From Clostridia bacterium (GTDB lineage: Bacteria; Bacillota; Clostridia; Christensenellales; QALW01): a stretch of DNA of 64,000 nt. Below, piece by piece: positions 4,067 to 55,483 of this stretch; the stretch's first letter is position 1, and every line of letters begins with the position of its first letter. The position numbers were made by a program, and so were the translations under genes. The stretch lies in contig JAZNSH010000017.1 in the NCBI GenBank assembly GCA_045591115.1, positions 65,691 to 129,690 of the forward strand, given 5' to 3'. The notes under the pieces were generated by a model, which worked only from the letters and a program-made list of their open reading frames with translations, was not told the DNA's origin and searched no databases.

Positions 4067-4142
4067 TGGTGGAGATAAACGGATTCGAACCGTCGGCCTG
4101 TTACATGCGAAGCAACCGCTCTACCAACTGAGCTATATCCCC
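4067..4142 (-). tRNA. tRNA-Ala (anticodon CGC), CCA encoded
   Basis: The reverse complement folds as a cloverleaf: acceptor GGGGATA/TATCTCC with G3:U70, D arm GCTC..GAGC, anticodon loop TTCGCAT, and T arm GGTTCGAATCC. Length is 76 nt. Confidence 0.93.
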
Positions 4143-6399: not shown

Positions 6400-6428
6400 T
6401 TGACATTGGCCTTTAATTTTGTTACAAT
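6400..6428 (+). promoter_or_regulatory. sigma-A-type promoter of glgBCD
   Basis: TTGACA, 17-nt spacer, TACAAT. The promoter lies 34 nt upstream of the glgB ATG. Confidence 0.6.
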
Positions 6429-6461
6429 ATAATCAGCAAAAATATACGGGAGGCTACCTAT

Positions 6462-8354
6462 ATGGGAAAAGAAAATTTTACAAAAAGCAAAATGATCAGT
6501 GATTTTGACCTCTATCTTGCCTGCGAGGGCACGCACAGAAATCTTGATGAGATATTAGGTGCACGCCCTGTGTTCAACAGCACAGGCCTGATTGATGGCT
6601 TCTATTTTGCAGTTTGGGCACCTCACGCAAAGAAAATAAGCGTTGTGGGTGATTTCAATGAATGGCAGGAAGACAGTGCTTTAATGGAAAGAATCCCTGA
6701 TACTGATTTCTGGGAGATCTATATTGAGGGCGTTCCCACAGGTTGCCTTTATAAATATTGTATAACCACCGCAGATGATAGGGTTATCTATAAAGCCGAT
6801 CCTATGGCAAAATTCAGCGAGCTCCGTCCTAAGACCGCTTCAATGACTTATGTTGATAACTACCGCTGGCACGATCTTTCCTGGTGCATAAAACATTCAA
6901 AGGCTCAGGATAAGAATCAGCCTATGGCAATTTATGAAATGCATATGGGCTCTTGGATGCGCGGTCATAATAACGAAATATTATCTTATAGTGACGTTGC
7001 TGATGCATTAGTTAAATTTTTAAAGGAAAATCGCTATACTCACGTTGAAATTATGCCCCTTGCAGAGCATCCCTATGATGGCTCCTGGGGATATCAGGCA
7101 ACGGGATATTTTGCACCAACATCACGTTACGGTACACCTGCCGAGCTTAAGTATTTTGTTGATGTTATGCATCAGAATTCCATCGGTGTAATCTTGGATT
7201 GGGTACCTGCACATTTCCCCAAAGATGCTCACGGCTTAGCTTTCTTTGATGGTGATTGCTTGTATGAAAAGGATGGAAACATCTCAGAGTGGGGTACACT
7301 TAAATTTAATTTTGCATCTCCTATGGTTCGTCAGTTCCTTGTTTCAAATGCTGTTTATTGGCTTAAAGAATTCCATTTTGACGGCTTGCGTGTTGATGCG
7401 GTAAGCAATATGGTTTACCTTGATTTCTGCAAAGCTCCCGGTGAATGGACACCTAACGCTTACGGCGGAACAGAGGATCTTGATGCACTTGAATTTATTA
7501 AAACACTTAATTCCATCGTTAAAGAAAAGTTCCCCGGTGCTTTGATGATAGCTGAAGAATCAGCCAACTATCCTAAGCTTACGGCACCTCTTGATGAAGG
7601 CGGACTTGGCTTTGACTTTAAGTGGAATATGGGTTGGATGAACGATACCTTGGAGTATATGGAAACCGATCCCTTGTTCAGAAGCGGTGTTCATAATAAG
7701 ATGACATTCTCAATGATGTACGCATTTAACGAGAATTATATTCTTCCTCTTTCCCACGATGAATGCGTTCACGGCAAAAAGAGCGTTTTAGATAAGATGC
7801 ACGGTGAATATTATCAGAAGTTTGCATCATTAAAGGCATATTACGGATATATGTTTGCACATCCCGGCAAAAAGCTTCTCTTTATGGGCAATGAGATCGG
7901 TCAGTTTATGGAGTGGCGCTATTACGAGCAGATCGAATGGAAGCTTCTTCAATATGAAACCCACCGCGGTCTTTATGGCTATGTGAAGGATTTATTGGCA
8001 CTCTATAATGATAATTCAGCCTTTTGGGCAAAGGATGATTCCTGGGATGGCTTCAAGTGGCTCAATGCTGATGATAAAGAGGGCAGCGTATATTCAATGG
8101 CACGTTTCTCAGATGATGAAACGATCCTCGCCATTGTCAATATGACTCCCGTTCAGCGCTTTGACTATTGGCTTTCAGCACCTGAGAAGGGCACTTATAA
8201 GCTTATTTTGAACAGTGATGATAAAAAGTATTCAGGTGAAGGAACCATCGTTAACGATGAACTTATCACCGATAATGAATCAAAGGAGTTTACAAACCGC
8301 ATCCGCGTGACAATACCGCCTATGTCGGTGCTCTATTATAAACTTGAAAAATAA
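6462..8354 (+). CDS. glgB: 1,4-alpha-glucan branching enzyme
   Basis: 630 aa. GH13 regions are present: DWVPAHF, GLRVDAV, AEES and LSHDE. Confidence 0.92.
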   Translation: MGKENFTKSKMISDFDLYLACEGTHRNLDEILGARPVFNSTGLIDGFYFAVWAPHAKKISVVGDFNEWQEDSALMERIPDTDFWEIYIEGVPTGCLYKYCITTADDRVIYKADPMAKFSELRPKTASMTYVDNYRWHDLSWCIKHSKAQDKNQPMAIYEMHMGSWMRGHNNEILSYSDVADALVKFLKENRYTHVEIMPLAEHPYDGSWGYQATGYFAPTSRYGTPAELKYFVDVMHQNSIGVILDWVPAHFPKDAHGLAFFDGDCLYEKDGNISEWGTLKFNFASPMVRQFLVSNAVYWLKEFHFDGLRVDAVSNMVYLDFCKAPGEWTPNAYGGTEDLDALEFIKTLNSIVKEKFPGALMIAEESANYPKLTAPLDEGGLGFDFKWNMGWMNDTLEYMETDPLFRSGVHNKMTFSMMYAFNENYILPLSHDECVHGKKSVLDKMHGEYYQKFASLKAYYGYMFAHPGKKLLFMGNEIGQFMEWRYYEQIEWKLLQYETHRGLYGYVKDLLALYNDNSAFWAKDDSWDGFKWLNADDKEGSVYSMARFSDDETILAIVNMTPVQRFDYWLSAPEKGTYKLILNSDDKKYSGEGTIVNDELITDNESKEFTNRIRVTIPPMSVLYYKLEK

Positions 8355-20526: not shown

Positions 20527-21864
20527 TTATTCGCCTTTTAAGCGCATAGTAATATCTTCCACTTCGTTTTTAACGGCAACGTCATTTTTAATAGCATTGC
20601 GGATCTTGCCGATGCCGTTAATGATAGTTGCGTGATCACGGCCGTTAAATTCATCGCCGATGCGCTTGTTTGAAAGATCGGTAAGCTCACGGCAAAGGAA
20701 GTAAGCAACGTGCCTGGGATGAACTATGGATTTATCTCGCCTTGGACCTAAAAGATCCTCGGTGGTAAGATTATAATATTCTGCAACCGTTGAAATGATC
20801 ATATCGGGAGTGCATTGCTTCTGAATCTCCGCGTTATAATCTCTTAAAACCTTTGAAACAAGGTCAACGGTGATAGGTGAGCCCGTTGTTTGGGCATAAA
20901 CAAGCACTCTCTTTAATGCGCCTTCAAGCTCACGAACGTTGTCGCTTGCTTTTTCGGCAATATGTAAAAGAATACTGTCATCAAGCTCGATCTTTTCAAA
21001 CTCTGCCTTCTTTCTTAAAATAGCGGCACGGGTTTCAAGATCGGGGGGAGTGATATCCACCAATAAACCGCCCTCAAAACGGGAACAAAGCCTATCGGAA
21101 AGAGTTTGAATACTCTTGGGCGGACGGTCGCTTGAAAGAATTATCTGCTTGTTTGAGGAGAAAAGATCGTTAATATTATGGAAAATCTCCTCCTGAGTGG
21201 AATCCTTGCCCGATAAGAACTGAACGTCATCAATCATCAAAACGTCAACATTCTCACGGAACTTGTCCCTGAAAACATCGATCTGATGCTTTGAAAGGGA
21301 ACGGATAAATTCGTTGGTATATTTTTCACAGGTAATATAAAGAACCTTTGTGTTGGGATTGTTTTCTAAAATATGATTTCCTATGGCGTGCATAAGATGA
21401 GTTTTTCCTACACCTACACCGCCATAAATAAACAGCGGGTTATTGATGGTGGCAGGTGCTTCGGCAACGCTCAGTGCGGCGGCGTGGGCAAACTGGTTAC
21501 CTGAGCCGATAACGAAGTTTTCAAAGGTATAGCGTTCGTTAAGCATTGGACGGGGAATAGAGGTTTTCTCTCTGATCGTGGTGTCCATTACCGAGGCGGC
21601 TTCAGATTCAAGAACCAGAATAACGTCAGCACCGGGCGAATCAATAACGATATTAAGTGCCGAAACTAAAAATGCGTGCATCATAGTTGCGGTCATCAAA
21701 TGCCTTCTCTGCATATCGGAGGTGGCTATTAAATATAAGGTGTTATCTTTAAAGGTAAGAGGCTTTAACGTTGCAATAAAGGTCTTATAAGAAATAGGGC
21801 TTATTTCTTGGGGAGACTGCTCGATTATTGCACATATATCGCTGAAAAGTTTATTAGCATCCAT
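20527..21864 (-). CDS. dnaA: chromosomal replication initiator protein DnaA
   Basis: 445 aa. Motifs are the Walker A GGVGVGKTHL, LMIDDVQFL, the sensor region and the C-terminal DNA-binding signature GRDHATI. Confidence 0.95.
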   Translation of the reverse strand: MDANKLFSDICAIIEQSPQEISPISYKTFIATLKPLTFKDNTLYLIATSDMQRRHLMTATMMHAFLVSALNIVIDSPGADVILVLESEAASVMDTTIREKTSIPRPMLNERYTFENFVIGSGNQFAHAAALSVAEAPATINNPLFIYGGVGVGKTHLMHAIGNHILENNPNTKVLYITCEKYTNEFIRSLSKHQIDVFRDKFRENVDVLMIDDVQFLSGKDSTQEEIFHNINDLFSSNKQIILSSDRPPKSIQTLSDRLCSRFEGGLLVDITPPDLETRAAILRKKAEFEKIELDDSILLHIAEKASDNVRELEGALKRVLVYAQTTGSPITVDLVSKVLRDYNAEIQKQCTPDMIISTVAEYYNLTTEDLLGPRRDKSIVHPRHVAYFLCRELTDLSNKRIGDEFNGRDHATIINGIGKIRNAIKNDVAVKNEVEDITMRLKGE

Positions 21865-46800: not shown

Positions 46801-48768
46801 TTATGCGTTTACCAAAATGGCAGAGCAGAAGGGTTTAAGGGTGATAGAGCCATCGTGAATTTCATCGGTTAGGATGTCCCTCATTTTGCCCTCAAATTTA
46901 AGTGTTCCGCCAACACCTAAAATATCTGCAACCATAAGACCCTTATGATTTTCACCCTCACGGCGGACAACTACGATGCTTCCCGAAACCTCAAACTTAT
47001 CACCGTTGTTTTCAACAACTGCTTTTGAAATAATCCTTCTTAATTCCTTTTCCTCAGGAAGCGTGCCTAAAATTATTACCTTACCCTTGCCGATGGGAAT
47101 TTCAAGGGCGCAGGGTTTTCCGATCATTGAACTGTGTCCCTTTTTAATAGTAATAAGATTATTTTCGCCCATATCCTCAAAGATCTCAAAGGATTTGGTG
47201 CATTTAACCTCTTCACCTAATTCGTTTACGCAGGTAAATGAGCCGTTATCGGTGGGGGTGATGTAAAGCTGATATGCTTTTGTTAATTTTTCCAAGAATC
47301 CGTAGGGCGCGTGAATGTACTTTGTGCCGATCTTCGTTCTGATATCAGATAATGGACCTACTACCCAAGTTCCGCCGTTATTTACCCACTTGGTTATCTT
47401 TTCTTCAAAGTTGCCCTCTTCAAGAGTGTAGGCAAAGGGTGAGAAGATGACCTTATATTTTTCAATATCTGCACATAAGTCAATAACATCGGGATGAACA
47501 CCCTCTTTAAGCATTAAAGAATAGAAATCGTAAACGTCGTTTTCGTTTTCCTTTAATTGGGTGTTTATCTGTTGTGTTAGGTGAATGTTCCAGTTAAGGC
47601 TTTGGAACGTTAAAGCAACGTTGCTTTCAACCTTGGTGTTAAGGAGGAAATCTTCTGATTTTTTAAGATCCTCAGAAAGCTTAATAAGCTCATTCTTGGT
47701 GTGAGTGAAACGACCTGAAGAATCAAGAACAGCGCCGTGCATAAGCTCGTGACCTGCCCAGTGGGTGCGCCATAACCAATAAAGATTTGCTTCGCCGCCA
47801 AACATATAGGCTATCCAGGAATTTAAGTGAATAAAATTATCGTCAAAAACATACATACCTTGGCTTGTTGCACCGTTCCACGTTGCCTGAGTTTCCGTTA
47901 CCCAATATGGAATTTTTGAAAAATTGCGCATATAGTCAAGCCAGAAAGTCATTGTGGGCATATAGTCAGGCTGAGAATAGTGGTTGAACATTGCAACGTC
48001 AAGCTTCCCGTTAAGGTCGCGGTAGTTAAATGAGTTAAAGGGCATAGTGTCTGTTCCGATAGGCTTTTTTGAATATTTGCGGATAACTTCTGCCTGAGCG
48101 TGCACAAACTTAACGTGGTTATTTGCCTGCACCAACTGCCACTCAAGCTTTATGTGTGGGTTGTGCCAGCCATTTATGGGGAAGGGAATATCCTCAATTC
48201 TATCGTATTTTTGCGAGAAAAGGTTAAGGTTCCATTGCTTGTTAACTTCCTCAACGCTACCATATTTGTTTTTAAGCCAATTATGATAATTTGTTTTGCA
48301 ATGCTCACAAATACAGGGCTTGTTGGGATAAATTTCATTATCTATCTGCCAGCCGATTACGTTTTCATCTTTGCCGAATTCTTGCGCAAGCTTTTCAACG
48401 ATTCGTAATGATTCTCTTATATAATTGGGGTTTGATGAACAGCAATGCCTTCTTCCGCCGTGGCTTGTAACTGTGCCCGAAGGATTTATTACCGCCATAT
48501 CGGGGTACTTATTATAAAGCCAGTTGGGCGGTGTTGCACTGGGGGTACCCATAATTACGGAAATTCCGTTTTCATTTAACTTATCAACAACGTTGTGAAG
48601 CCAAGTAAAATCATAAACACCGTCTGCAGGCTCCATTTTTGCCCAAGAAAACTCGGCAATTCTTACAACGTTAAAGCCTACCTCTTTCATTTTTAAAATG
48701 TCATTATCAATTTCAGTTGCGTCCCAATCTTCGGGATAGTAATCAGAACCTAAATATAATTTGCTCAT
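46801..48768 (-). CDS. GH42 family beta-galactosidase
   Basis: 655 aa. YYPE.W, VRI.EF.W...EP..G.YDF.W and GWQIDNE (acid/base) are present, with a trimerisation-type middle domain. Confidence 0.9.
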   Translation of the reverse strand: MSKLYLGSDYYPEDWDATEIDNDILKMKEVGFNVVRIAEFSWAKMEPADGVYDFTWLHNVVDKLNENGISVIMGTPSATPPNWLYNKYPDMAVINPSGTVTSHGGRRHCCSSNPNYIRESLRIVEKLAQEFGKDENVIGWQIDNEIYPNKPCICEHCKTNYHNWLKNKYGSVEEVNKQWNLNLFSQKYDRIEDIPFPINGWHNPHIKLEWQLVQANNHVKFVHAQAEVIRKYSKKPIGTDTMPFNSFNYRDLNGKLDVAMFNHYSQPDYMPTMTFWLDYMRNFSKIPYWVTETQATWNGATSQGMYVFDDNFIHLNSWIAYMFGGEANLYWLWRTHWAGHELMHGAVLDSSGRFTHTKNELIKLSEDLKKSEDFLLNTKVESNVALTFQSLNWNIHLTQQINTQLKENENDVYDFYSLMLKEGVHPDVIDLCADIEKYKVIFSPFAYTLEEGNFEEKITKWVNNGGTWVVGPLSDIRTKIGTKYIHAPYGFLEKLTKAYQLYITPTDNGSFTCVNELGEEVKCTKSFEIFEDMGENNLITIKKGHSSMIGKPCALEIPIGKGKVIILGTLPEEKELRRIISKAVVENNGDKFEVSGSIVVVRREGENHKGLMVADILGVGGTLKFEGKMRDILTDEIHDGSITLKPFCSAILVNA

Positions 48769-48828: not shown

Positions 48829-48961
48829 TAGTAAGATATTGACTTTGTTGAACTATATTGACAAAAAAGCACCGAAACCATAAATGACCGCATAATTAAA
48901 GACGGCGCGGATCTTTATGATGAAATCAGCAAGTTCCCTAAAAAAACTCTTTATTTTTATA

Positions 48962-49386
48962 ATCTGCCAACCGATAACGTTTTCATCCTTACCGAATTCC
49001 TGCGCAAGTTTTTCAACGATCCTTAATGATTCCCTTATATAGTTGGGGGTTGATGAACAGCAATGCCTTCTTTCGCCGTGGCTTGTAACTGTGCCCGAAG
49101 GATTTATTACCGCCATATCGGGGTACTTATTATAAAGCCAGTTGGGCGGTGTTACGCTGGGAGTTCCCAAAATTACGGAAATTCCCTTTGCCTTTAACTT
49201 ATCAACCACATTGTGAAGTCAAATAAAATCATAAACGCCATCAGCAGGTTCCATTTTTGCCCAGGCAAACTCGGCAATTCTTGCAACGTTGAAGCCGACT
49301 TCTTTCATTTTTAAGATATCTTTGTCAATTTCGCTTGCATCCCAATCTTCGAGATAGTAATCTGAACCTAAATAGAGCTTAGCCAT
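48962..49386 (-). pseudogene. truncated, stop-interrupted paralogue of the GH42 N-terminus
   Basis: It aligns colinearly with 48350-48768 (parent codons 1 to about 141). TGA replaces Trp56 at 49221-49219. Homology ends after GWQI, just before the catalytic DNE. Confidence 0.85.
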
Positions 49387-49451: not shown

Positions 49452-49484
49452 AAAAAAAGGTCCTCCGGAAATAACACGGAGGAC
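49452..49484 (-). terminator. intrinsic terminator of the candidate sRNA
   Basis: GTCCTCCG/CGGAGGAC hairpin followed by CTTTTTTTATTTT on the minus strand. Confidence 0.7.
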
Positions 49485-49918
49485 TAAATATAATAATTAC
49501 ATTTACAAATTCTATATGTTAAGTTTATTCAATTGTCTTGGGTTAAAACTAAATAGTACATTGGACTAATTTCCTTTTCTTAGATTTTCAAGTTTCTCAA
49601 TTTCGTCATAAGACCACATCCTTGAAAATTTACATTGTTACATTTTTTGTGCGCTTATGCGCTGATTCAGAACATTGGACCGTTTCCTTTCTTACAAGAT
49701 TTCGAGATAGAACCTTTTTTTCATGAAAAACCACGTCCTTTTACTTAATTAAAAGATGGTATCTCGTGTCAGCACATTGGACCAAATATCCTTTCTGAAA
49801 ATTTTATCGCTTCAGGCAAAGACTTGTTCTTTCCGCCTGCAAAGCTCATCAGCCACAGGTATTATTTAATTATCACTTCTTCTGTTGCCATTGGACTCAC
49901 GTCTTTCTTTCTTTTTTC
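49452..49918 (-). ncRNA. candidate ~470-nt non-coding RNA with four SD+AUG-like repeat modules
   Basis: It is bracketed by a consensus promoter and a terminator. The conserved block GAAAGGA-N-GTCCAATG recurs four times, with ATGs at 49891, 49777, 49675 and 49561. There is no conserved ORF. Confidence 0.4.
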
Positions 49919-49924
49919 ACCTTT

Positions 49925-49953
49925 ATTATAACAAAGGTAAAAGCCAATGTCAA
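49925..49953 (-). promoter_or_regulatory. consensus sigma-A promoter of the candidate sRNA
   Basis: TTGACA, 17-nt spacer, TATAAT on the minus strand. Confidence 0.65.
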
Positions 49954-50045
49954 TACCCTATTTATAAAAAATTCATAATTTTTACGATATTTTTTAATTT
50001 TTGAACCATTTTTATGAAACTTGTGTGATAATTTATATAAACCTA

Positions 50046-50074
50046 TTGACAAAAGTTATAAAAAGCGATACAAT
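50046..50074 (+). promoter_or_regulatory. sigma-A-type promoter of the RHH-clpB operon
   Basis: TTGACA, 17-nt spacer, TACAAT. Confidence 0.6.
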
Positions 50075-50099: not shown

Positions 50100-50738
50100 A
50101 TGAGCAAAAGTTTATATAGTGTAATTCTTACAGATGAAATAGTGTATGAAATTGATCGCCTTGCGTTAAGGCAGAACACCAACAGATCCAATTTAATCAA
50201 TCAGATTTTGGCGGAATACGTGTCCTACGTTACGCCCGAAATGAAAATAAACAGTATTTTCAAGACTATTGAGGCACTTATAAACGAAAGCACTCATTTA
50301 GTGCCTGAGGTTCTTCCCCAAAGAAGCACAATGAGCTTAAGGGGCAATCTTGATTACCGCTATCGGCCAACCGTTAAATATGACGTTGAGCTTTTTAAAA
50401 CTGTTGAGGATTCCACCATCGGCAGACTCAGCGTAGTTTTCCGCACACAATCGGAAATTCTGTTAAATAGAATGAATGAGTTTTTTAAGCTTTGGTGCTA
50501 TCTTGAAAGCAATGTTTTCAAAAAGGATATTACTTATTCCTTATCTGACGGCAGATTTGTGCGCAGTATAACCCTTAACACAAACAAGAGCTACACCCCA
50601 AAGGAAATTGCCGATGCAATATCATCTTATATAAAGTTGTTTGACGACTGTATGAAAAATTATCTTTCCGGTAAATACACCGAAAACGATATTTTACTGA
50701 AACTTAAATCACACACCGTAAAGGAGGTTTTAATATGA
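50100..50738 (+). CDS. hypothetical protein with N-terminal ribbon-helix-helix (CopG/Arc-like) motif
   Basis: [18 protein letters not shown]....[14 protein letters not shown] fits a beta-strand/helix/helix RHH pattern. The remaining roughly 165 aa were not recognised. There is an ATGA overlap with clpB. Confidence 0.65.
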
Positions 50739-53308
50739 CAGATAAAATTACTAAAAAAACAATGGAGGCATTTCAGGAGGCACAGCGCATAGCCGAGGAA
50801 TACGGCAACGCACAGCTTCAGCCCGAACATCTTTTTTATGCGCTTCTTTCAGATACCGAAGGGCTTATACCAAGCATTTTAGCTAAAATGAACGTGGAGG
50901 CTGACGGACTTAAAAGCGCCATCAATAACTATCTTTCATCCTTGCCGCGAGTTTCGGGCAATCAAAAGGTTTATGTTTCAGGTGAAACGGAAAAGATCCT
51001 TAATAATGCCGAAAAGGAAATGAAGAAAAAAGGCGATGAATATCTTTCTGTTGAGCATATCGCTTACGCTGTAATCGCTTCGCCCACAGATAAATTAAAG
51101 GAGCTTTTCAAGGTATATAACTTAACCTTAAAGGCATTTGCAAGTGAGCTTGAAAAGATAAAGGCAGGCAAAAAGGTTACAAGCGATACTCCCGAAAACA
51201 CCTACGAAGCACTTTTAAAGTACGGCACCGATCTTGTTGAAAGGGCAAAGGAGGGCAAGCTTGATCCCGTTATCGGCAGAGATACGGAGATAAGAAATGT
51301 TATCCGTATTCTTTCAAGAAAGACCAAAAACAATCCGGTGCTTATCGGTGAACCGGGCGTTGGTAAAACTGCCATTGCAGAAGGTCTTGCACAAAGAATC
51401 GTTCGCGGTGACGTGCCTGAAGGCTTAAAGGAGAAAACAGTTTTTTCTCTTGATATGGGTTCCTTGATCGCAGGAGCAAAATTCCGCGGTGAGTTTGAGG
51501 AAAGGTTAAAGGCGGTACTAACGGAGATAAAAGAATCCGATGGCAGAATAATTCTCTTTATTGATGAGCTTCACACCATTGTTGGTGCAGGCAAAACCGA
51601 TGGCGCAATGGATGCGGGAAACTTATTGAAGCCTATGCTTGCCCGCGGTGAATTACACTGCATCGGTGCAACCACGTTAGATGAATACCGCAAATATATT
51701 GAAAAGGATGCGGCGCTGGAAAGACGTTTTCAGCCTGTGCTTGTTGATGAGCCTGACGTTGAGGATACCATTTCCATCCTCCGAGGGTTAAAGGAAAAGT
51801 ATGAGGTATTCCACGGGGTAAGAATTCACGATAACGCTTTAATCGCGGCGGCAACCTTATCTAACCGCTATATTACTGACCGCTTTTTGCCGGATAAAGC
51901 CATTGATCTTGTTGACGAGGCTTGCGCGCTTATCCGCACCGAGATCGATTCAATGCCTGCCGAGCTTGATGATATGCGCAGAAAGATTATGCAGCTTGAA
52001 ATTGAAGAGATGGCTCTTTCTAAGGAAACCGATACTCTTTCCAAGGAACGCCTTGAAAAGCTCAAGGAGGAATTAAGCGAGGAAAAGGAGAAGTTCAATG
52101 CACTGAAAGCCAAATGGGATAAGGATAAAAATGAGATCGAATCGGTTAAGACCATTAAGGCTGAAATAGATAAGACTAATCTTGAAATCGAAAATGCACA
52201 GCGCGTTTATGATTATGAAAAGGTTGCAAAGCTCAAATACTCATATCTTCCCGAGCTTGAAAACAAGCTTAAGGCGGCTGAGGAAAAGACCAAGGCGGCA
52301 AGCCTTGTAAGAGATACGGTAACCGATGAAGAGATTGCAGGCATCGTTGCAAAGTGGACGGGAATCCCCGTGCAAAAGCTTGTTGAGGGCGAGAGGGAAA
52401 AGATCCTTAATCTTGAAAAGATACTTCATAAGCGTGTTATCGGTCAGAATGAAGCGGTAACCAAGGTTTCGGAGGCAATTCTTCGCTCCCGTGCAGGAAT
52501 TTCAGATCCTAACCGCCCAATAGGCTCTTTTATGTTCTTAGGACCTACGGGTGTTGGTAAAACCGAGCTTGCAAAGGCTCTTGCACAGAATCTTTTCGAT
52601 GATGAAAAGAATATGGTAAGAATAGATATGAGTGAGTATATGGAGAAATTCTCCGTTTCACGGCTTATCGGAGCCCCTCCCGGATACGTTGGTTATGATG
52701 AGGGCGGTCAGCTTACCGAGGCAGTAAGGCGCAAGCCTTATTCGGTGGTGCTTTTTGATGAGATCGAAAAGGCACACCCCGACGTTTTCAATATTTTACT
52801 GCAGGTGTTGGATGACGGCAGAATTACCGATTCCCAGGGAAGATTGGTTGATTTTAAGAATACGGTTATTATTTTAACAAGTAACTTAGGCTCACAGTAT
52901 CTTTTAGAGGGAATAAACGAGGATGGCGAAATTTCTAAGAGTGCAAGAAATCAGGTTGAAGCACTGTTGAAGCAAAGCTTCCGCCCCGAATTTTTGAACC
53001 GTCTTGATGAAATAGTTTTCTATAAGCCTTTAAATAAAGAGGATATTAAGGGAATTATTGATATTTTGATTGAAAACCTCAAAAAGCGCCTCAGCGAAAG
53101 AAGCCTTAATCTGTTTGTTACCGACAGAGCAAAGGATTTTATTATAGAAAAGGGCTTTGATGCAGTGTACGGTGCCCGTCCCTTAAAGAGATATATTCAG
53201 AGCCGTGTTGAAACGCTGATAGCAAAAACTATTCTGGAAAAGGATCTTGAGCTTTTCGCTACGCTGACCGTTGATTCCGATGGTGAAAGCATCTTTATAA
53301 CGGTGTAA
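50735..53308 (+). CDS. clpB: ATP-dependent chaperone ClpB
   Basis: 857 aa. It has a Clp_N domain, two AAA+ modules (GEPGVGKT and GPTGVGKT) and a long middle coiled coil. Confidence 0.95.
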
Positions 53309-53470: not shown

Positions 53471-53695
53471 ATGAAAAAGTTTATTGCTATTGCTTTGATT
53501 CTCGTTACAGTTCTTGCATTATTTACAGCTTGCGGCAGCAAGTACACTTGCGATATCTGCGGTCAGGAAAAGACCAGCGGAAAGAACGAAACTACAGTTG
53601 ATGGCGAGACACTTGTTTATTGCAGCGATGCTGAGTGCAAAGAAGCAGTCGATACAATTAAAGCTCTTGCTGAATTAGCAGAAGCATTTGGCTAA
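53471..53695 (+). CDS. small Cys-containing lipoprotein (74 aa)
   Basis: The lipobox is FTAC. CDICG...C..AEC is a zinc-ribbon-like motif. Confidence 0.65.
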   Translation: MKKFIAIALILVTVLALFTACGSKYTCDICGQEKTSGKNETTVDGETLVYCSDAECKEAVDTIKALAELAEAFG

Positions 53696-54064: not shown

Positions 54065-55426
54065 ATGGAGAACAGAGATATTTTTATTGAAAATATCACG
54101 GAGCTTTTAGAGAAAAAGGATTTTAAGGGCATAGCCCGTGCGCTTTCCGAGCTTCAACCGGTGGATATTGCTGAAAGCGCTGTAATGTTTTCGCTAAAGG
54201 AGAGGGCAATATTATTCAGGCTATTGCCCAAGGATCTGGCGGCAGAAGTATTTGTTGAGCTTGACAGCGAAATGCAGGAGGAGCTTATTTCAGGCTTTAC
54301 CGATAACGAGCTTCACGGCGTTTTAAATGAGCTTTTTGTTGATGATACCGTTGATATCATTGAGGAAATGCCCGCAAGCGTGGTAAGGCGAATTATTAAG
54401 AACTGTCCTGCTGATATGAGGAACGATATAAACAGTATTCTTGCCTTTGATAAGAATACCGCAGGCAGTATTATGACGCCTGAATATATTGCATTAAAGC
54501 CTGATATGACGGTTAAGGATGCAATAAAGCATATTCGTGAGCAATCACTTGATTCGGAAACGGTGTACACCCTTTATGTTAAGGATAATAAGCGCACTCT
54601 GTTGGGCGTTGTAAGCGTAAGAGAGCTTTTCCTTGCCTCAGATGATGAGGTGATCAAAAACATAATGAACGAAAACGTTATTTACGTTGAAACCTTATCT
54701 GACCGTGAAGAAGCGGCAAAGCTCCTTGATAAATACGATTTTCTTGCATTGCCCGTAACCGATAAGGAAAAGCGTCTTGTGGGAATCATTACCGTTGACG
54801 ATGCTATTGACGTTTTGCAAGAAGAATTTACCGAAGATATCTCCAAAATGGCGGCAGTTATGCCCATTGAGGAAACTTATTTCAAAACGAGCGTTTTTAA
54901 GCACTCCCTTTCAAGAATTTTGTGGCTTATTGTTTTGATGGTTTCTGCCACCGTAACGGGATTTATAATTACCCACTATGAGGAAACCTTTCAAGCGGTG
55001 CCACTCTTAATTGCTTGCTTGCCTATGCTTATGGGCACCGGCGGTAACTGCGGATCTCAGGCTTCAACGATGATAATCCGCGGTCTTGCCACAGATGAGC
55101 TTCATTTAAGGGATATCTTTAAAGTTTGGTGGAAGGAAGTTCGCATTTCACTTATTGTGGGTGTTGTGCTGGCGGCAGTTAACACCGCGCGGGTATTTCT
55201 TCTCTATGGCGTAACGGGGGAGATAATTTCCCTTGCAATTACAAATGCACTTGCACTTTTGTTTACCGTAACTCTTGCACAGAGCTTGGGATGCTTGCTT
55301 CCGATGGGTGCAAAGGCAGTAAAATTGGATCCTGCCATTATGGCGGCGCCTCTTATCACCACCATTGTTGATGCATTAAGCGTTATGGTATTCTTTATGG
55401 TTGCCGTGTGGGTTTTTGCAATGTAG
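54065..55426 (+). CDS. mgtE: magnesium transporter MgtE
   Basis: It has an MgtE_N domain, two CBS domains and a TM domain with the GTGGNCGSQ motif. Confidence 0.93.
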   Translation: MENRDIFIENITELLEKKDFKGIARALSELQPVDIAESAVMFSLKERAILFRLLPKDLAAEVFVELDSEMQEELISGFTDNELHGVLNELFVDDTVDIIEEMPASVVRRIIKNCPADMRNDINSILAFDKNTAGSIMTPEYIALKPDMTVKDAIKHIREQSLDSETVYTLYVKDNKRTLLGVVSVRELFLASDDEVIKNIMNENVIYVETLSDREEAAKLLDKYDFLALPVTDKEKRLVGIITVDDAIDVLQEEFTEDISKMAAVMPIEETYFKTSVFKHSLSRILWLIVLMVSATVTGFIITHYEETFQAVPLLIACLPMLMGTGGNCGSQASTMIIRGLATDELHLRDIFKVWWKEVRISLIVGVVLAAVNTARVFLLYGVTGEIISLAITNALALLFTVTLAQSLGCLLPMGAKAVKLDPAIMAAPLITTIVDALSVMVFFMVAVWVFAM

Positions 55427-55483
55427 CATTTTTAATAAAAAACTGAATAAGTTTAAATATCGATTTTTAAGGAGATAATATTT

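What the first reader, a model, noticed from the sequence alone, without database searches (positions are those of the whole stretch)
49452..49953. Promoter-to-terminator ~470-nt non-coding unit with four evenly spaced SD+AUG decoy modules (candidate sponge/decoy sRNA)
On the minus strand, a perfect TTGACA-17-TATAAT promoter (49953-49925) and a GC hairpin with a U-tract (49484-49452) bracket about 470 nt. No ORF in this span exceeds 26 codons. Block Y, AGAAAGGA(A/T)A-N2-4-GTCCAATG(T), recurs four times, with AUGs at 49891, 49777, 49675 and 49561. The spacing between them is 114, 102 and 114 nt. A second block X, AAGGA(C/U)GUGGU-N3-5-AUGA, is clear in units 3 and 4 and degenerate in units 1 and 2. 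Sequence between the blocks is not conserved. The mini-ORFs starting at the conserved AUGs are unrelated (MATEEVIIK*, MC*, MF*, MYYLVLTQDN*), so conservation is at nucleotide level, not peptide level. The transcript carries five AAGGA motifs. UUCAAGGAUGUGG in unit 4 matches 10 of 12 positions of the published CsrA SELEX consensus RUACARGGAUGU. It sits at the edge of a loop closed by UUUUCAAG/CUUGAAAA. This architecture (many SD-like GGA sites, its own promoter and terminator, no coding capacity) resembles CsrB/RsmZ-type protein sponges, which I believe are not established in Clostridia. The two start-stop units (AUG-NNN-UGA) could instead act as ribosome decoys.
Basis: partly seen in the sequence, partly recalled or inferred. 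Interest (0 to 1): 0.75.

Follow-up and report, generated by a model that had tools for sequence, protein, structure and literature searches.

The report
Tandem mini-ORF small RNA beside clpB
A short, very strongly promoted RNA next to a stress-chaperone operon in uncultured gut Clostridia is built from 2-4 repeats of unusually strong ribosome-binding sites that open reading frames only 2-10 codons long, so it most likely works by catching and quickly releasing ribosomes, not by encoding a protein or soaking up CsrA.

Summary
On the minus strand, a perfect TTGACA-17-TATAAT promoter (49953-49925) and an intrinsic terminator (49484-49452) bracket about 467 nt. This span carries four GTCCAATG blocks spaced 114, 102 and 114 nt apart.

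The same unit, with 2-4 modules and 239-474 nt long, lies divergent from a ribbon-helix-helix (RHH)-clpB operon in 16 loci of different uncultured gut Clostridia. Two more loci carry variant forms. It has no Rfam, plasmid or phage match and no similarity to the GH42 pseudogene.

The modules behave like ribosome-binding sites, not CsrA sites:
- GGA is not enriched, and one family member has none.
- The purine block varies only among Shine-Dalgarno variants.
- X and Y blocks are extended complements of the 16S rRNA 3' tail (predicted -12 and -14 kcal/mol, against -9 for real genes).
- The Y AUG is followed by an in-frame stop within 4 codons in 29 of 35 units, against 6 and 4 of 35 in the other frames.
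- X ORFs are 9-10 codons long and end 21 nt before the Y AUG.
- Variant loci encode MxxIRAV micro-ORFs that use five different Arg codons.

Best reading: a translated mini-ORF array, or ribosome-engaging decoy RNA. Its cellular role is unknown. The CsrB-like reading is not supported.

The parts
49954..49990 (-). A/T-rich UP-element-like tract directly upstream of the -35 (AAAAATTATGAATTTTTTATAAATAGGGTA)
   Evidence: Conserved in position and A/T pattern in all element-bearing loci. The UP-element function is inferred from resemblance to the consensus (own knowledge).
49925..49953 (-). Promoter TTGACA-17 nt-(TG)TATAAT
   Evidence: 12/12 match with TG extension. TTGACW-17/18-TATAAT sits at the same place in 15 related loci.
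49452..49918 (-). Predicted transcript of about 467 nt. The start is inferred at the conserved G about 7 nt after the -10.
   Evidence: The boundaries come from the promoter and terminator. Homologous units are 239-474 nt. There is no Rfam family and no stable global fold (z -1.38).
49862..49913 (-). Y1 module: AGAAAGACGUGAGUCCA + AUG (49891) + 9-codon ORF MATEEVIIK*
   Evidence: The predicted duplex with the 16S 3' tail is -13.5 kcal/mol. The module lies 27 nt from the inferred 5' end.
49813..49840 (-). Hairpin H2: CAGGC-GG-AAAGA / UCUUU-GCCUG
   Evidence: Read. L010 has AAGGA/UCCUU at the same place and L008 has GGGC..AAAG/CUUU..GCCC. These compensatory changes were seen by eye.
49769..49796 (-). 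Y2 module: AGAAAGGAUAUUUGGUCCA + AUG (49777) UGC UGA (MC*)
   Evidence: The predicted duplex is -17.6 kcal/mol. Orthologues encode MY* or MV*.
49692..49740 (-). X3 module: extended SD AAGGACGUGGU + AUG (49724) + 10-codon ORF MKKRFYLEIL* ending UAA (49694-49692)
   Evidence: The predicted duplex is -13.2 kcal/mol. The ORF lies in a long imperfect hairpin (I2).
49667..49693 (-). Y3 module: AAGAAAGGAAACGGUCCA + AUG (49675) UUC UGA (MF*)
   Evidence: The predicted duplex is -17.4 kcal/mol, with 13 of 16 positions paired to GGAUCACCUCCUUUCU in register.
49580..49632 (-). X4 module: stem UUUUCAAG/CUUGAAAA, extended SD CAAGGAUGUGGU, AUG (49609), 9-codon ORF MTKLRNLKI* ending UAA (49582-49580)
   Evidence: (I13). 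The predicted duplex is -14.8 kcal/mol.
49529..49582 (-). Y4 module: UAAGAAAAGGAAAUUAGUCCA + AUG (49561) + 10-codon ORF MYYLVLTQDN*
   Evidence: GUCCAAUG is invariant in all 14 aligned loci.
49515..49538 (-). Conserved 3' motif AGACAAUUGAAUAAACUUAACAUA
   Evidence: The columns are invariant or nearly so in alignment A3. The motif is conserved even where the Y4 ORF ends earlier (L010, L090, L091). It is absent in L015, L016 and L104. Its function is unknown.
49452..49484 (-). Intrinsic terminator: GUCCUCCG-loop-CGGAGGAC + U7
   Evidence: Every related locus has a terminator here, with a different stem sequence.
50013..50074 (+). Divergent RHH-clpB promoter (TTGACA-17-TACAAT, 50046-50074) and conserved operator-like sequence ATGAAACTTGTGTGATAATTTATATAAA
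   Evidence: It is conserved in all RHH-clpB loci, with or without the RNA. It is context only and has not been shown to control the RNA.
50100..53308 (+). RHH-domain protein gene (212 aa, 50100-50738) overlapping clpB (50735-53308). This is the constant neighbour of the RNA.
   Evidence: The other flank varies (GH42, AraC, LacI, MBL hydrolase).

Best explanation
The unit is an independently transcribed, probably abundant small RNA whose working parts are ribosome-binding modules.

Anatomy. Each Y module combines a purine-rich Shine-Dalgarno block with an invariant R-U-C-C-R, an AUG, 1-3 sense codons and a stop. Together these form a bipartite complement of the whole 16S rRNA 3' tail. Each X module is an 11-nt extended Shine-Dalgarno (AAGGAYGUGGU, compared with the perfect AAGGAGGUGAU), an AUGA start and a 9-10-codon ORF. 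The X stop lies 21 nt before the next Y AUG.

Proposed mechanism. 30S subunits or 70S ribosomes are captured on these very strong, evenly spaced sites, translate 2-10 codons and are released. The RNA therefore acts through ribosome occupancy, as a decoy, sink or turnstile for initiating ribosomes. It may also act as a reporter of translation capacity. It does not act through a protein product or by titrating CsrA.

Shown:
- The anatomy and its conservation.
- The variation in module copy number.
- Complementarity to the anti-Shine-Dalgarno sequence.
- The frame-specific stops.

Inferred:
- That the RNA is transcribed and abundant.
- That ribosomes bind it and translate the mini-ORFs.
- Its cellular role, and any functional link to RHH-clpB.
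For: 1. Transcription unit. A consensus promoter and a terminator are retained in 16 loci while the terminator stem sequence changes.
2. Linkage. The unit stays with RHH-clpB while the other flank varies, so it is not a leader of a downstream gene.
3. The purine block behaves as an SD. It varies among SD variants (AAAGGA, GAGGU, GGGGA, GAYGUGA), all complementary to the 16S tail.
4. Duplex strength. Predicted duplex energies average -14.2 kcal/mol for Y (n=49) and -12.0 for X (n=26), against -9.2 for 33 real genes of the window.
5. Frame-specific stops. An in-frame stop lies within 4 codons or fewer of the Y AUG in 29 of 35 non-terminal units, against 6/35 and 4/35 in the other frames. Twenty distinct mini-ORF sequences are seen, with UAA and UGA alternating.
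6. X geometry. 22 of 25 distinct X ORFs are 9-10 codons, the stop codon type varies (UAA/UGA/UAG), and the distance to the Y AUG is fixed.
7. Specificity. The composite Y signature occurs only inside the element in 586 kb of loci plus window, with one exception.
8. Amino-acid-level selection in variants. L017 and L104 carry MxxIRAV micro-ORFs with Arg encoded by CGA, CGT, CGC, CGG and AGA. This shows selection on the peptide and therefore translation.
9. Precedent for the pairing. Cryo-EM and toeprinting in the Firmicute S. aureus show that an AU or GU dinucleotide after the SD pairs with 16S A1543/U1544. That is the same pairing proposed for the R-U of RUCC and for the GU of the X block (PMC13009471).
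10. Little structure. The RNA folds weakly (z -1.38; local hairpins z about -1 to 0), as expected for an RNA that presents single-stranded sites.
Against: - There are no expression, ribosome-profiling or binding data. Everything rests on sequence.
- UCC directly before a start codon is atypical. None of 35 real gene starts in the window has it.
- Predicted folds usually pair UCC with the module's own GGA. The Y sites could therefore be partly self-occluded, or recognised by something other than the ribosome.
- Pairing of positions -2 and -3 with 16S rRNA while the AUG sits in the P site goes beyond the published structure and may be sterically impossible.
- Peptide-level conservation in L017 and L104 points to a peptide-specific, stalling-type role rather than a pure decoy.
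- A natural ribosome-sponge RNA has no established precedent.
- A conserved 3' motif (49538-49515) is not explained by this model.
Confidence: 0.42

Rival explanations
1. The RNA is a sponge for an RNA-binding protein other than CsrA. The protein would recognise the invariant start-region mimic (SD plus RUCCRAUG), possibly a translational repressor or even the neighbouring RHH protein. The immediate stops would only limit wasteful translation of the mimic.
For: - RUCCR is invariant and atypical for real RBSs.
- Copy number varies from 2 to 4, as in sponge RNAs.
- The RNA is constantly linked to a regulator gene.
- Precedents exist of sponge RNAs that sequester regulators, such as EutX/Rli55 with EutV (own knowledge).
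Against: - No natural mRNA with a Y-like start region was found in the window or in 586 kb of loci.
- The RHH C-terminal domain has no recognisable RNA-binding fold (pLDDT 69; no PDB match).
- No partner is identified.
Confidence: 0.18
2. The RNA is a CsrB/RsmZ-type sponge that titrates CsrA through multiple GGA motifs.
For: - The window has five AAGGA motifs.
- UUCAAGGAUGUGG resembles the CsrA SELEX consensus (sequence; consensus from memory).
- An alternative local fold CUAA/UUAG would put GGA of Y4 in a loop (read).
Against: - GGA is not enriched (8 against 6.8 +/- 2.3), and L011 has none.
- The purine blocks switch to GAGGU or GAYGUGA.
- GGA is mostly predicted to be paired.
- No Csr/Rsm Rfam hit was found.
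- CsrA binding explains neither the invariant UCCRAUG nor the in-frame stops.
Confidence: 0.04
3. The RNA is a base-pairing regulator. Either it is a sponge for a C/U-rich anti-SD sRNA, or it is an sRNA whose seed is the Y block or the conserved 3' motif. Ribosome binding would serve only to stabilise it against RNase J/Y, as in STAB-SD.
For: - Short motifs are repeated and invariant.
- A/U-rich 3' motif is conserved independently of the reading frame.
- Y1 lies 27 nt from the 5' end, like 5' stabiliser SDs (own knowledge).
Against: - No complementary site for GUCCAAUG or for the 3' motif exists in the 64-kb window.
- There is no significant pairing with the RHH or clpB start regions (z about 0).
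- The 3' motif is missing in L015, L016 and L104.
- The frame-specific stops are not needed in this model.
Confidence: 0.12
4. The peptides or nascent chains matter. The array would encode regulatory arrest peptides that sense a drug or metabolite on the ribosome, as erm/cat-type leaders and 3-codon uORF attenuators do. Alternatively it would encode short leaderless signalling or ribosome-protecting peptides.
For: - IRAV micro-ORFs show amino-acid-level selection in L017 and L104.
- L017 has SD-sequestering hairpins between ORFs, as translational attenuators do.
- X peptides keep their length (9 aa) and a hydrophobic/basic pattern.
- A regulator gene with a divergent small-peptide gene is the layout of Rgg/SHP and RopB/SIP systems (own knowledge).
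Against: - X peptide sequences differ strongly between close relatives (MTKLRNLKI, MRKIVYLKI, MKVFLPLKI).
- Y products are only 2-4 residues.
- There is no regulated downstream gene. The flank varies and the terminator is more than 55 nt from the last stop.
- X3 has lost its AUG in L010.
Confidence: 0.15
5. It is not an RNA element at all. The blocks would be a DNA-level array of protein-binding sites, or decayed tandem duplicates of the GH42 5' end.
For: - Spacing of 102-114 bp is close to multiples of the helical repeat.
- A GH42 pseudogene lies next door.
Against: - There is no similarity to the GH42 region (best E 0.46).
- The element occurs in loci without GH42.
- All blocks are co-oriented between a conserved promoter and terminator, with frame-specific stops.
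- The block differs from the RHH operator-like sequence.
Confidence: 0.02

Closest known systems
Start-stop sites and minigenes (E. coli start-stops of Meydan et al., bioRxiv 10.1101/520783; phage lambda bar minigenes, own knowledge)
   Same: Both have an SD plus an AUG followed at once, or after 1-3 codons, by a stop. The start-stops bind ribosomes in vitro and in vivo and were proposed to act as 'turnstiles'. The bar minigenes work through ribosome and tRNA engagement, not through a product.
   Different: The known cases are single sites inside genes or phage DNA. Here 2-4 sites alternate with 9-codon ORFs in a dedicated transcript with its own promoter and terminator. They also carry an invariant RUCC before the AUG.
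Extended Shine-Dalgarno pairing in Firmicutes (S. aureus aur mRNA; PMC13009471)
   Same: An AU or GU dinucleotide after the SD core pairs with 16S A1543/U1544 across a flipped-out A1546. The GU of the X block and the R-U of the Y block lie in the same register.
   Different: Y blocks would add two further C-G pairs that reach to position -2, which is not shown in any structure. Real genes of this genome do not use UCC there.
CsrB/CsrC/RsmX/Y/Z protein-sponge RNAs
   Same: Both are small, non-protein-coding RNAs with their own promoter and terminator, repeated SD-like motifs and a variable number of repeats.
   Different: GGA is neither enriched nor universal, and it is not displayed in loops. 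The invariant part is UCCRAUG plus an in-frame stop. No Rfam match was found.
Drug-sensing leader peptides and micro-uORF attenuators (ermC/ermA/cat leaders; 3-codon uORFs found by Term-seq; own knowledge)
   Same: Both have strong SDs, very short ORFs and hairpins around them. The variant loci have a conserved peptide motif (IRAV, compared with IAVV of ErmAL1) and SD-sequestering helices.
   Different: There is no regulated gene downstream. The terminator is far from the last ORF. The peptides are not conserved in the window's own clade.
STAB-SD and 5' ribosome-binding stabilisers of Bacillus mRNAs (own knowledge)
   Same: A strong SD-like sequence lies close to the 5' end (Y1 at +27) and could protect the RNA from 5'-to-3' decay.
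   Different: STAB-SD is a single element in the leader of a long mRNA and has no start codon of its own. Here the modules make up almost the whole RNA.
Type III antitoxin RNA arrays (ToxI)
   Same: Both are tandem repeats lying between a promoter and a terminator.
   Different: ToxI repeats are 36-nt near-exact copies followed by a toxin gene. Here the units are 100-114 nt and divergent, and the downstream gene varies.

Membership tests
CsrB/RsmZ-type CsrA sponge | Many GGA motifs, strongly over-represented, in every member | tested here: not met
   The window has 8 GGA against 6.8 +/- 2.3 in shuffles. Counts in the 14 RNAs range from 0 to 10, and L011 has 0.
CsrB/RsmZ-type CsrA sponge | GGA presented in hairpin loops or single-stranded linkers | tested here: inconclusive
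   In most predicted folds the GGA of Y blocks pairs with the UCC 4-7 nt downstream. An alternative CUAA/UUAG stem would expose GGA in Y4. The folds are weak.
CsrB/RsmZ-type CsrA sponge | Match to a Csr/Rsm covariance model | tested here: not met
   No such hit was found at gathering score or at E <= 10.
CsrB/RsmZ-type CsrA sponge | csrA (and fliW) present in the same genome | not testable with these tools
Start-stop / minigene elements | Functional-looking SD at proper spacing before an AUG | tested here: met
   Predicted duplexes with the 16S tail are -10.4 to -18.1 kcal/mol. Aligned spacing is about 7 nt.
Start-stop / minigene elements | Stop codon in frame immediately, or within a few codons, after the start | tested here: met
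   29 of 35 units have the stop within 4 codons in frame 0, against 6/35 and 4/35 in the other frames.
Start-stop / minigene elements | Ribosomes actually initiate there | not testable with these tools
   This needs toeprinting or retapamulin ribosome profiling.
Drug- or ligand-sensing leader peptide attenuator | Leader peptide conserved at amino-acid level | tested here: inconclusive
   Met in variants L017 and L104: IRAV with five Arg codons. Not met in the window clade, where X peptides diverge.
Drug- or ligand-sensing leader peptide attenuator | A downstream gene whose terminator or SD is controlled by the leader ORF | tested here: not met
   The downstream flank varies (GH42, LacI, MBL hydrolase, convergent AraC). 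The co-oriented downstream genes examined (L006, L010, L090) have their own promoter-like sequences. The terminator is more than 55 nt from the last stop.
Type III TA antitoxin RNA | Near-identical short tandem repeats followed by an endoribonuclease toxin gene | tested here: not met
   The longest repeat pair aligns 34 nt at 74% identity, the shorter pairs are at best about 90% identical and mostly lie outside the unit register, and the units are about 108 nt. There is no constant downstream gene.
RNA thermometer | SD sequestered in a temperature-labile hairpin in front of a heat-shock ORF | tested here: inconclusive
   A GGA/UCC pairing of 3-4 bp is predicted. It is very weak, it is missing in GAGGU-type blocks, and the ORF behind it is only 2-4 codons.
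Any Rfam family | Score at or above the gathering threshold | tested here: not met
   The only hit in the window is a tRNA at 4070-4142. The best sub-threshold hit is the L10 leader at 19.7 bits against a threshold of 44.

The most novel reading that the evidence does not exclude
The RNA is a natural ribosome sponge or translation-capacity sensor. It would be a dedicated, highly expressed RNA whose 4-8 maximally extended Shine-Dalgarno/start-stop modules hold and cycle initiating ribosomes. By doing so it would buffer or report the pool of free ribosomes, coupled through the shared control region to the RHH-ClpB proteotoxic-stress operon. No such bacterial RNA class has been described.
Probability: 0.22. 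Interest if true: 0.88.

Novelty: new variant of a known kind. Interest (0 to 1): 0.68.

Why it matters
Start-stop sites and minigenes are known only as isolated curiosities inside genes or phage DNA. If the reading is right, this would be the first case of a cell keeping a dedicated transcript made of them, conserved across species and variable in copy number. That would make ribosome occupancy itself the product of a gene.

It also offers a natural test bed for the recently described extended SD-anti-SD pairing of Firmicutes. It adds an undescribed RNA family, and a widespread uncharacterised RHH-ClpB regulator, to the poorly known biology of uncultured gut Clostridia. Even the more modest readings, a new protein sponge or an arrest-peptide array, would be new for this phylum.

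Tried and rejected
- Rfam: scans at gathering score and at E <= 10 found nothing relevant.
- Plasmids and phages: blastn of the unit found no match.
- GH42: blastn against the GH42 pseudogene and gene gave only chance 9-13-mers, so the 'decayed duplicate' idea is rejected.
- Metagenome DNA-pattern scan for the last module found 0 hits. The metagenome protein scan gave only 4 loci.
- Consensus structure: RNAalifold on the 3' module predicted no fold beyond a 3-bp GGA/UCC pairing.
- Local hairpins (X4 stem, post-Y4 hairpin) are not more stable than shuffles, with z about -1 to 0.
- Pairing of the RNA with the RHH and clpB start regions has z about 0.
- Targets: no site complementary to GUCCAAUG or to the 3' motif exists in the window.
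- Y-like gene starts: no real gene with a Y-like start region was found.
- RHH protein: it has no Pfam family and only a marginal RHH antitoxin hit in PDB sequences. The AF2 model has pLDDT 69 and no significant fold match, so it gave no clue to a link with the RNA.
- Literature searches found no description of such an RNA.
- The fifth GTCCAATG in the window, at 21551-21544, lies inside dnaA and is a chance match.
- A macrolide '+x+' arrest motif in the X peptides was considered. It is present in only some orthologues, so it was not pursued.
Full report
**1. The observation**

On the minus strand, a 12/12 sigma-70 consensus promoter with a TG extension lies at 49953-49925. A G+C-rich hairpin followed by seven U lies at 49484-49452. 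The automatic scan missed the hairpin only because its loop exceeds the scan's 8-nt limit.

Between them, GTCCAATG occurs four times on the same strand, with AUGs at 49891, 49777, 49675 and 49561. The whole 64-kb window holds five copies against 1.6 expected. The fifth lies inside dnaA and is a chance match.

No Rfam family matches, either at gathering score or at E <= 10. The predicted fold of the 476-nt RNA is barely better than shuffles (z -1.38).

**2. Context and conservation**

On the plus strand a 212-aa protein with an N-terminal ribbon-helix-helix (RHH) motif (50100-50738) overlaps clpB (50735-53308). On the other side lie fragments of a GH42 gene and an intact GH42 gene.

I fetched relatives of the RHH protein in several ways. 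These showed that the same unit sits divergent from RHH-clpB in 16 loci from different uncultured Clostridia of ruminant and human gut, with RHH identity of 58-90%:
- the window, L002, L006, L007, L008, L009, L010, L011, L012, L015, L016, L090, L091 and L092;
- L100 and L102, both cut off by the contig end.

Each complete unit has a TTGACW-17/18-TATAAT promoter behind an A/T-rich tract and an intrinsic terminator whose stem sequence differs from locus to locus. The units are 239-474 nt long and carry 2-4 Y blocks.

The far flank varies: GH42, convergent AraC, LacI or an MBL hydrolase. The RNA is therefore not the leader of a downstream gene, and it does not depend on GH42. Blastn of the unit against the GH42 region gives only chance words (best E 0.46).

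About 65 more distant RHH-clpB loci, and L013, L014, L096, L098 and L103, lack the element. Plasmid and phage collections have no similar DNA. A sequence model of the last module also hits units 3 and 2 of the window (E 2.5e-4 and 0.023). It hits L104 at 1e-11 and L102 at 5e-7. The units are therefore homologous repeats, and the family extends to variant forms.

**3. What is conserved**

Alignment of the last module in 14 loci leaves GUCCAAUG invariant.

Across 51 distinct Y units the pattern is as follows:
- an A-rich stretch;
- a purine-rich block;
- 3-6 variable bases;
- R-U-C-C-R-AUG.

The units were collected with that pattern. Its specificity was therefore tested separately on 586 kb of loci plus window. 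The combination of RTCCRATG, strong anti-SD complementarity and a stop within 4 codons occurs only inside the element, with one exception.

The purine block is not constant. It is AAAGGA in most units, GAGGU in L011, L092 and L012, GGGGA or GAGGGA in L012 and L015, and GAYGUGA in the first unit of most loci. All of these are Shine-Dalgarno variants.

Predicted duplexes with the 16S 3' tail GGAUCACCUCCUUUCU compare as follows:

| Sites | n | Mean duplex energy (kcal/mol) |
|---|---|---|
| Y blocks | 49 | -14.2 |
| X blocks | 26 | -12.0 |
| Real genes of the window | 33 | -9.2 |

The Y pairing is bipartite. The SD part pairs with CCUCC/UCCUUUCU, and RUCC pairs with GGAU, which adds about 5 kcal/mol. 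In Y3 the 16 bases AGAAAGGAAACGGUCC lie in exact register with the perfect complement AGAAAGGAGGUGAUCC. The X block AAGGAYGUGGU differs from the perfect AAGGAGGUGAU at only two positions, one of which is a G-U wobble.

A 2026 cryo-EM and toeprinting study of S. aureus shows that in this Firmicute an AU or GU dinucleotide following the SD pairs with 16S A1543/U1544 across a flipped-out A1546 (PMC13009471). This is the pairing proposed here for the GU of X and for the R-U of Y. The two further C-G pairs of Y go beyond that structure.

**4. Reading-frame signals**

From the Y AUG, the in-frame stop comes within 4 codons or fewer in 29 of 35 non-terminal units, against 6/35 and 4/35 in the +1 and +2 frames. 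The six exceptions are the 8-9-codon ORFs of unit 1.

There are 20 distinct mini-ORF sequences, including MY*, MF*, MC*, MV*, MHR*, MYV*, MKM*, MGI* and MITV*. UAA and UGA alternate at the same position between orthologues. A fixed RNA motif would not produce stops after one, two or three variable codons. A reading-frame constraint does.

Of the 25 distinct X ORFs, 22 are 9-10 codons long. Most start with AUGA and use UAA, UGA or UAG in different species. In most cases they end 21 nt before the Y AUG. Their peptide sequences diverge quickly (MTKLRNLKI, MRKIVYLKI, MKVFLPLKI). Part of their conservation coincides with a weak hairpin, so peptide-level selection cannot be shown in this clade.

In the variant loci L017 and L104, micro-ORFs encode MxxIRAV. 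Arg is written as CGA, CGT, CGC, CGG and AGA, Ala as GCC, GCT, GCG and GCA, and Val as GTT, GTG and GTA. This is clear amino-acid-level selection and hence evidence of translation. L104 combines an IRAV ORF with an X-like ORF and a Y-like block, which links the two forms.

**5. Test of the CsrA-sponge idea**

- GGA is not enriched in any of the 14 RNAs. The window has 8 against 6.8 +/- 2.3 in shuffles, and L011 has none.
- Predicted folds pair the GGA of Y blocks with the downstream UCC rather than exposing it.
- No Csr/Rsm model matches.
- CsrA binding would explain neither the invariant UCCRAUG nor the in-frame stops.

Whether these genomes have csrA could not be tested. I therefore do not file the RNA with CsrB/RsmZ.

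**6. Other tests that led nowhere**

- There is no conserved global structure.
- Local hairpins have some compensatory changes by eye: H2 with AAAGA/UCUUU against AAGGA/UCCUU, and the X4 stem UUUUCAAG/CUUGAAAA against UUUUGUAAAU/AUUUACAAAA. Their stability is no better than shuffles.
- There is no significant pairing with the RHH or clpB start regions.
- No complementary targets exist in the window.
- No real gene with a Y-like start was found.
- The RHH C-terminal domain has no fold match.

**7. Most likely mechanism**

The features under selection are a strong promoter, extended complementarity to the 16S tail, an AUG, a nearby in-frame stop, fixed X-to-Y geometry and a variable module number. 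These are the features of sites that ribosomes bind and leave quickly.

I therefore read the RNA as a translated mini-ORF array that acts through ribosome occupancy. It would be a decoy, sink or 'turnstile' for initiating ribosomes, comparable to E. coli start-stops (10.1101/520783) and lambda bar minigenes, but organised as a dedicated transcript.

The anatomy, the conservation and the statistics are shown. Transcription, ribosome binding, the physiological role and any regulatory tie to RHH-ClpB are inferred.

Three things remain unexplained:
- the invariant UCC, which real genes of this genome never have before a start codon (0 of 35);
- the conserved 3' motif at 49538-49515;
- the strict linkage to RHH-clpB.

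Rivals that stay open are a sponge for an unknown RNA-binding protein, an arrest-peptide sensor, and a base-pairing RNA stabilised by ribosomes.

**8. Novelty**

No Rfam family, no similar plasmid or phage DNA and no paper in the searched library describes this RNA. Its parts are known kinds of element: extended SDs, start-stops and micro-ORFs. Their assembly into a conserved stand-alone RNA is new.

I rate it a new variant of a known kind. There is about a one-in-five chance that it represents a genuinely new class, a ribosome sponge or translation-capacity sensor.

Noticed in passing
window 48853-49386 (-) and 46801-48768 (-): Two ORF fragments encode the first third of a GH42 beta-galactosidase. 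They are 90% identical over 413 nt to the intact GH42 gene immediately downstream. This is a partial tandem duplication that has become a pseudogene.
   Followed up: partly
window 50013-50074 (+); same place in all RHH-clpB loci: The conserved sequence ATGAAACTTGTGTGAnAATTTATATAAA-N4-TTGACAAAAGTT lies at the RHH-clpB promoter in every locus examined, with or without the RNA. L090, L091, L002 and L008 carry a second degenerate copy 45-50 bp further upstream. It is a candidate operator of the RHH protein.
   Followed up: partly
window 50100-53308 (+): An uncharacterised 212-aa RHH-domain protein is translationally coupled (ATGA overlap) to clpB. More than 559 related loci exist in GTDB genomes of Oscillospiraceae and other Clostridia. 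The protein has no Pfam family, and its C-terminal domain has no PDB fold match. It may be a new type of clpB regulator.
   Followed up: partly
L017:2330-2780 (-) and L104:740-1100 (-): At the position of the RNA, these loci have tandem micro-ORFs: MILIRAVVLAGAVG*, MKLIRAVYRTGVLA*, MKMIRAVTLAGVV* and MVQIRAV* in L017, and MIFIRAV* in L104. The IRAV motif is written with five different Arg codons. In L017 each following SD is sequestered by an upstream complementary stretch, as in translational attenuators.
   Followed up: partly
L102:60-300 (-): Two almost identical consecutive X+Y units (MTTRYLLEF* followed by MY*) differ inside the X ORF only at two synonymous third positions (ACA ACG against ACG ACA). 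This looks like a recent module duplication.
   Followed up: no
window 20527-21864 (-): This gene is dnaA (Bac_DnaA and Bac_DnaA_C domains), so the window lies next to the chromosomal replication origin. It contains the fifth, chance GTCCAATG.
   Followed up: no
window 6400-6429 (+): A 30-nt stretch is 87% identical to the RNA's promoter, giving another near-consensus promoter in front of the gene at 6462-8354.
   Followed up: no
window 55419-55480 (+): The module model gives a weak hit here (14.4 bits, E 0.006) in the A/T-rich (GC 0.19) spacer between mgtE and a phosphoglucomutase gene. It is probably due to base composition.
   Followed up: no
window 53471-53695 (+): A 74-aa ORF with a lipoprotein-like signal sequence and Cys-rich motifs lies just downstream of clpB. 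A gene of the same length sits at the same place in L001, where the precomputed annotation lists a weak zf-FCS hit. The window copy itself has no Pfam hit.
   Followed up: no
window, 35 gene starts: Real genes use AAGGAG-type SDs followed by A/U-rich spacers. None has UCC in the 8 nt before the start codon, unlike every Y block.
   Followed up: yes
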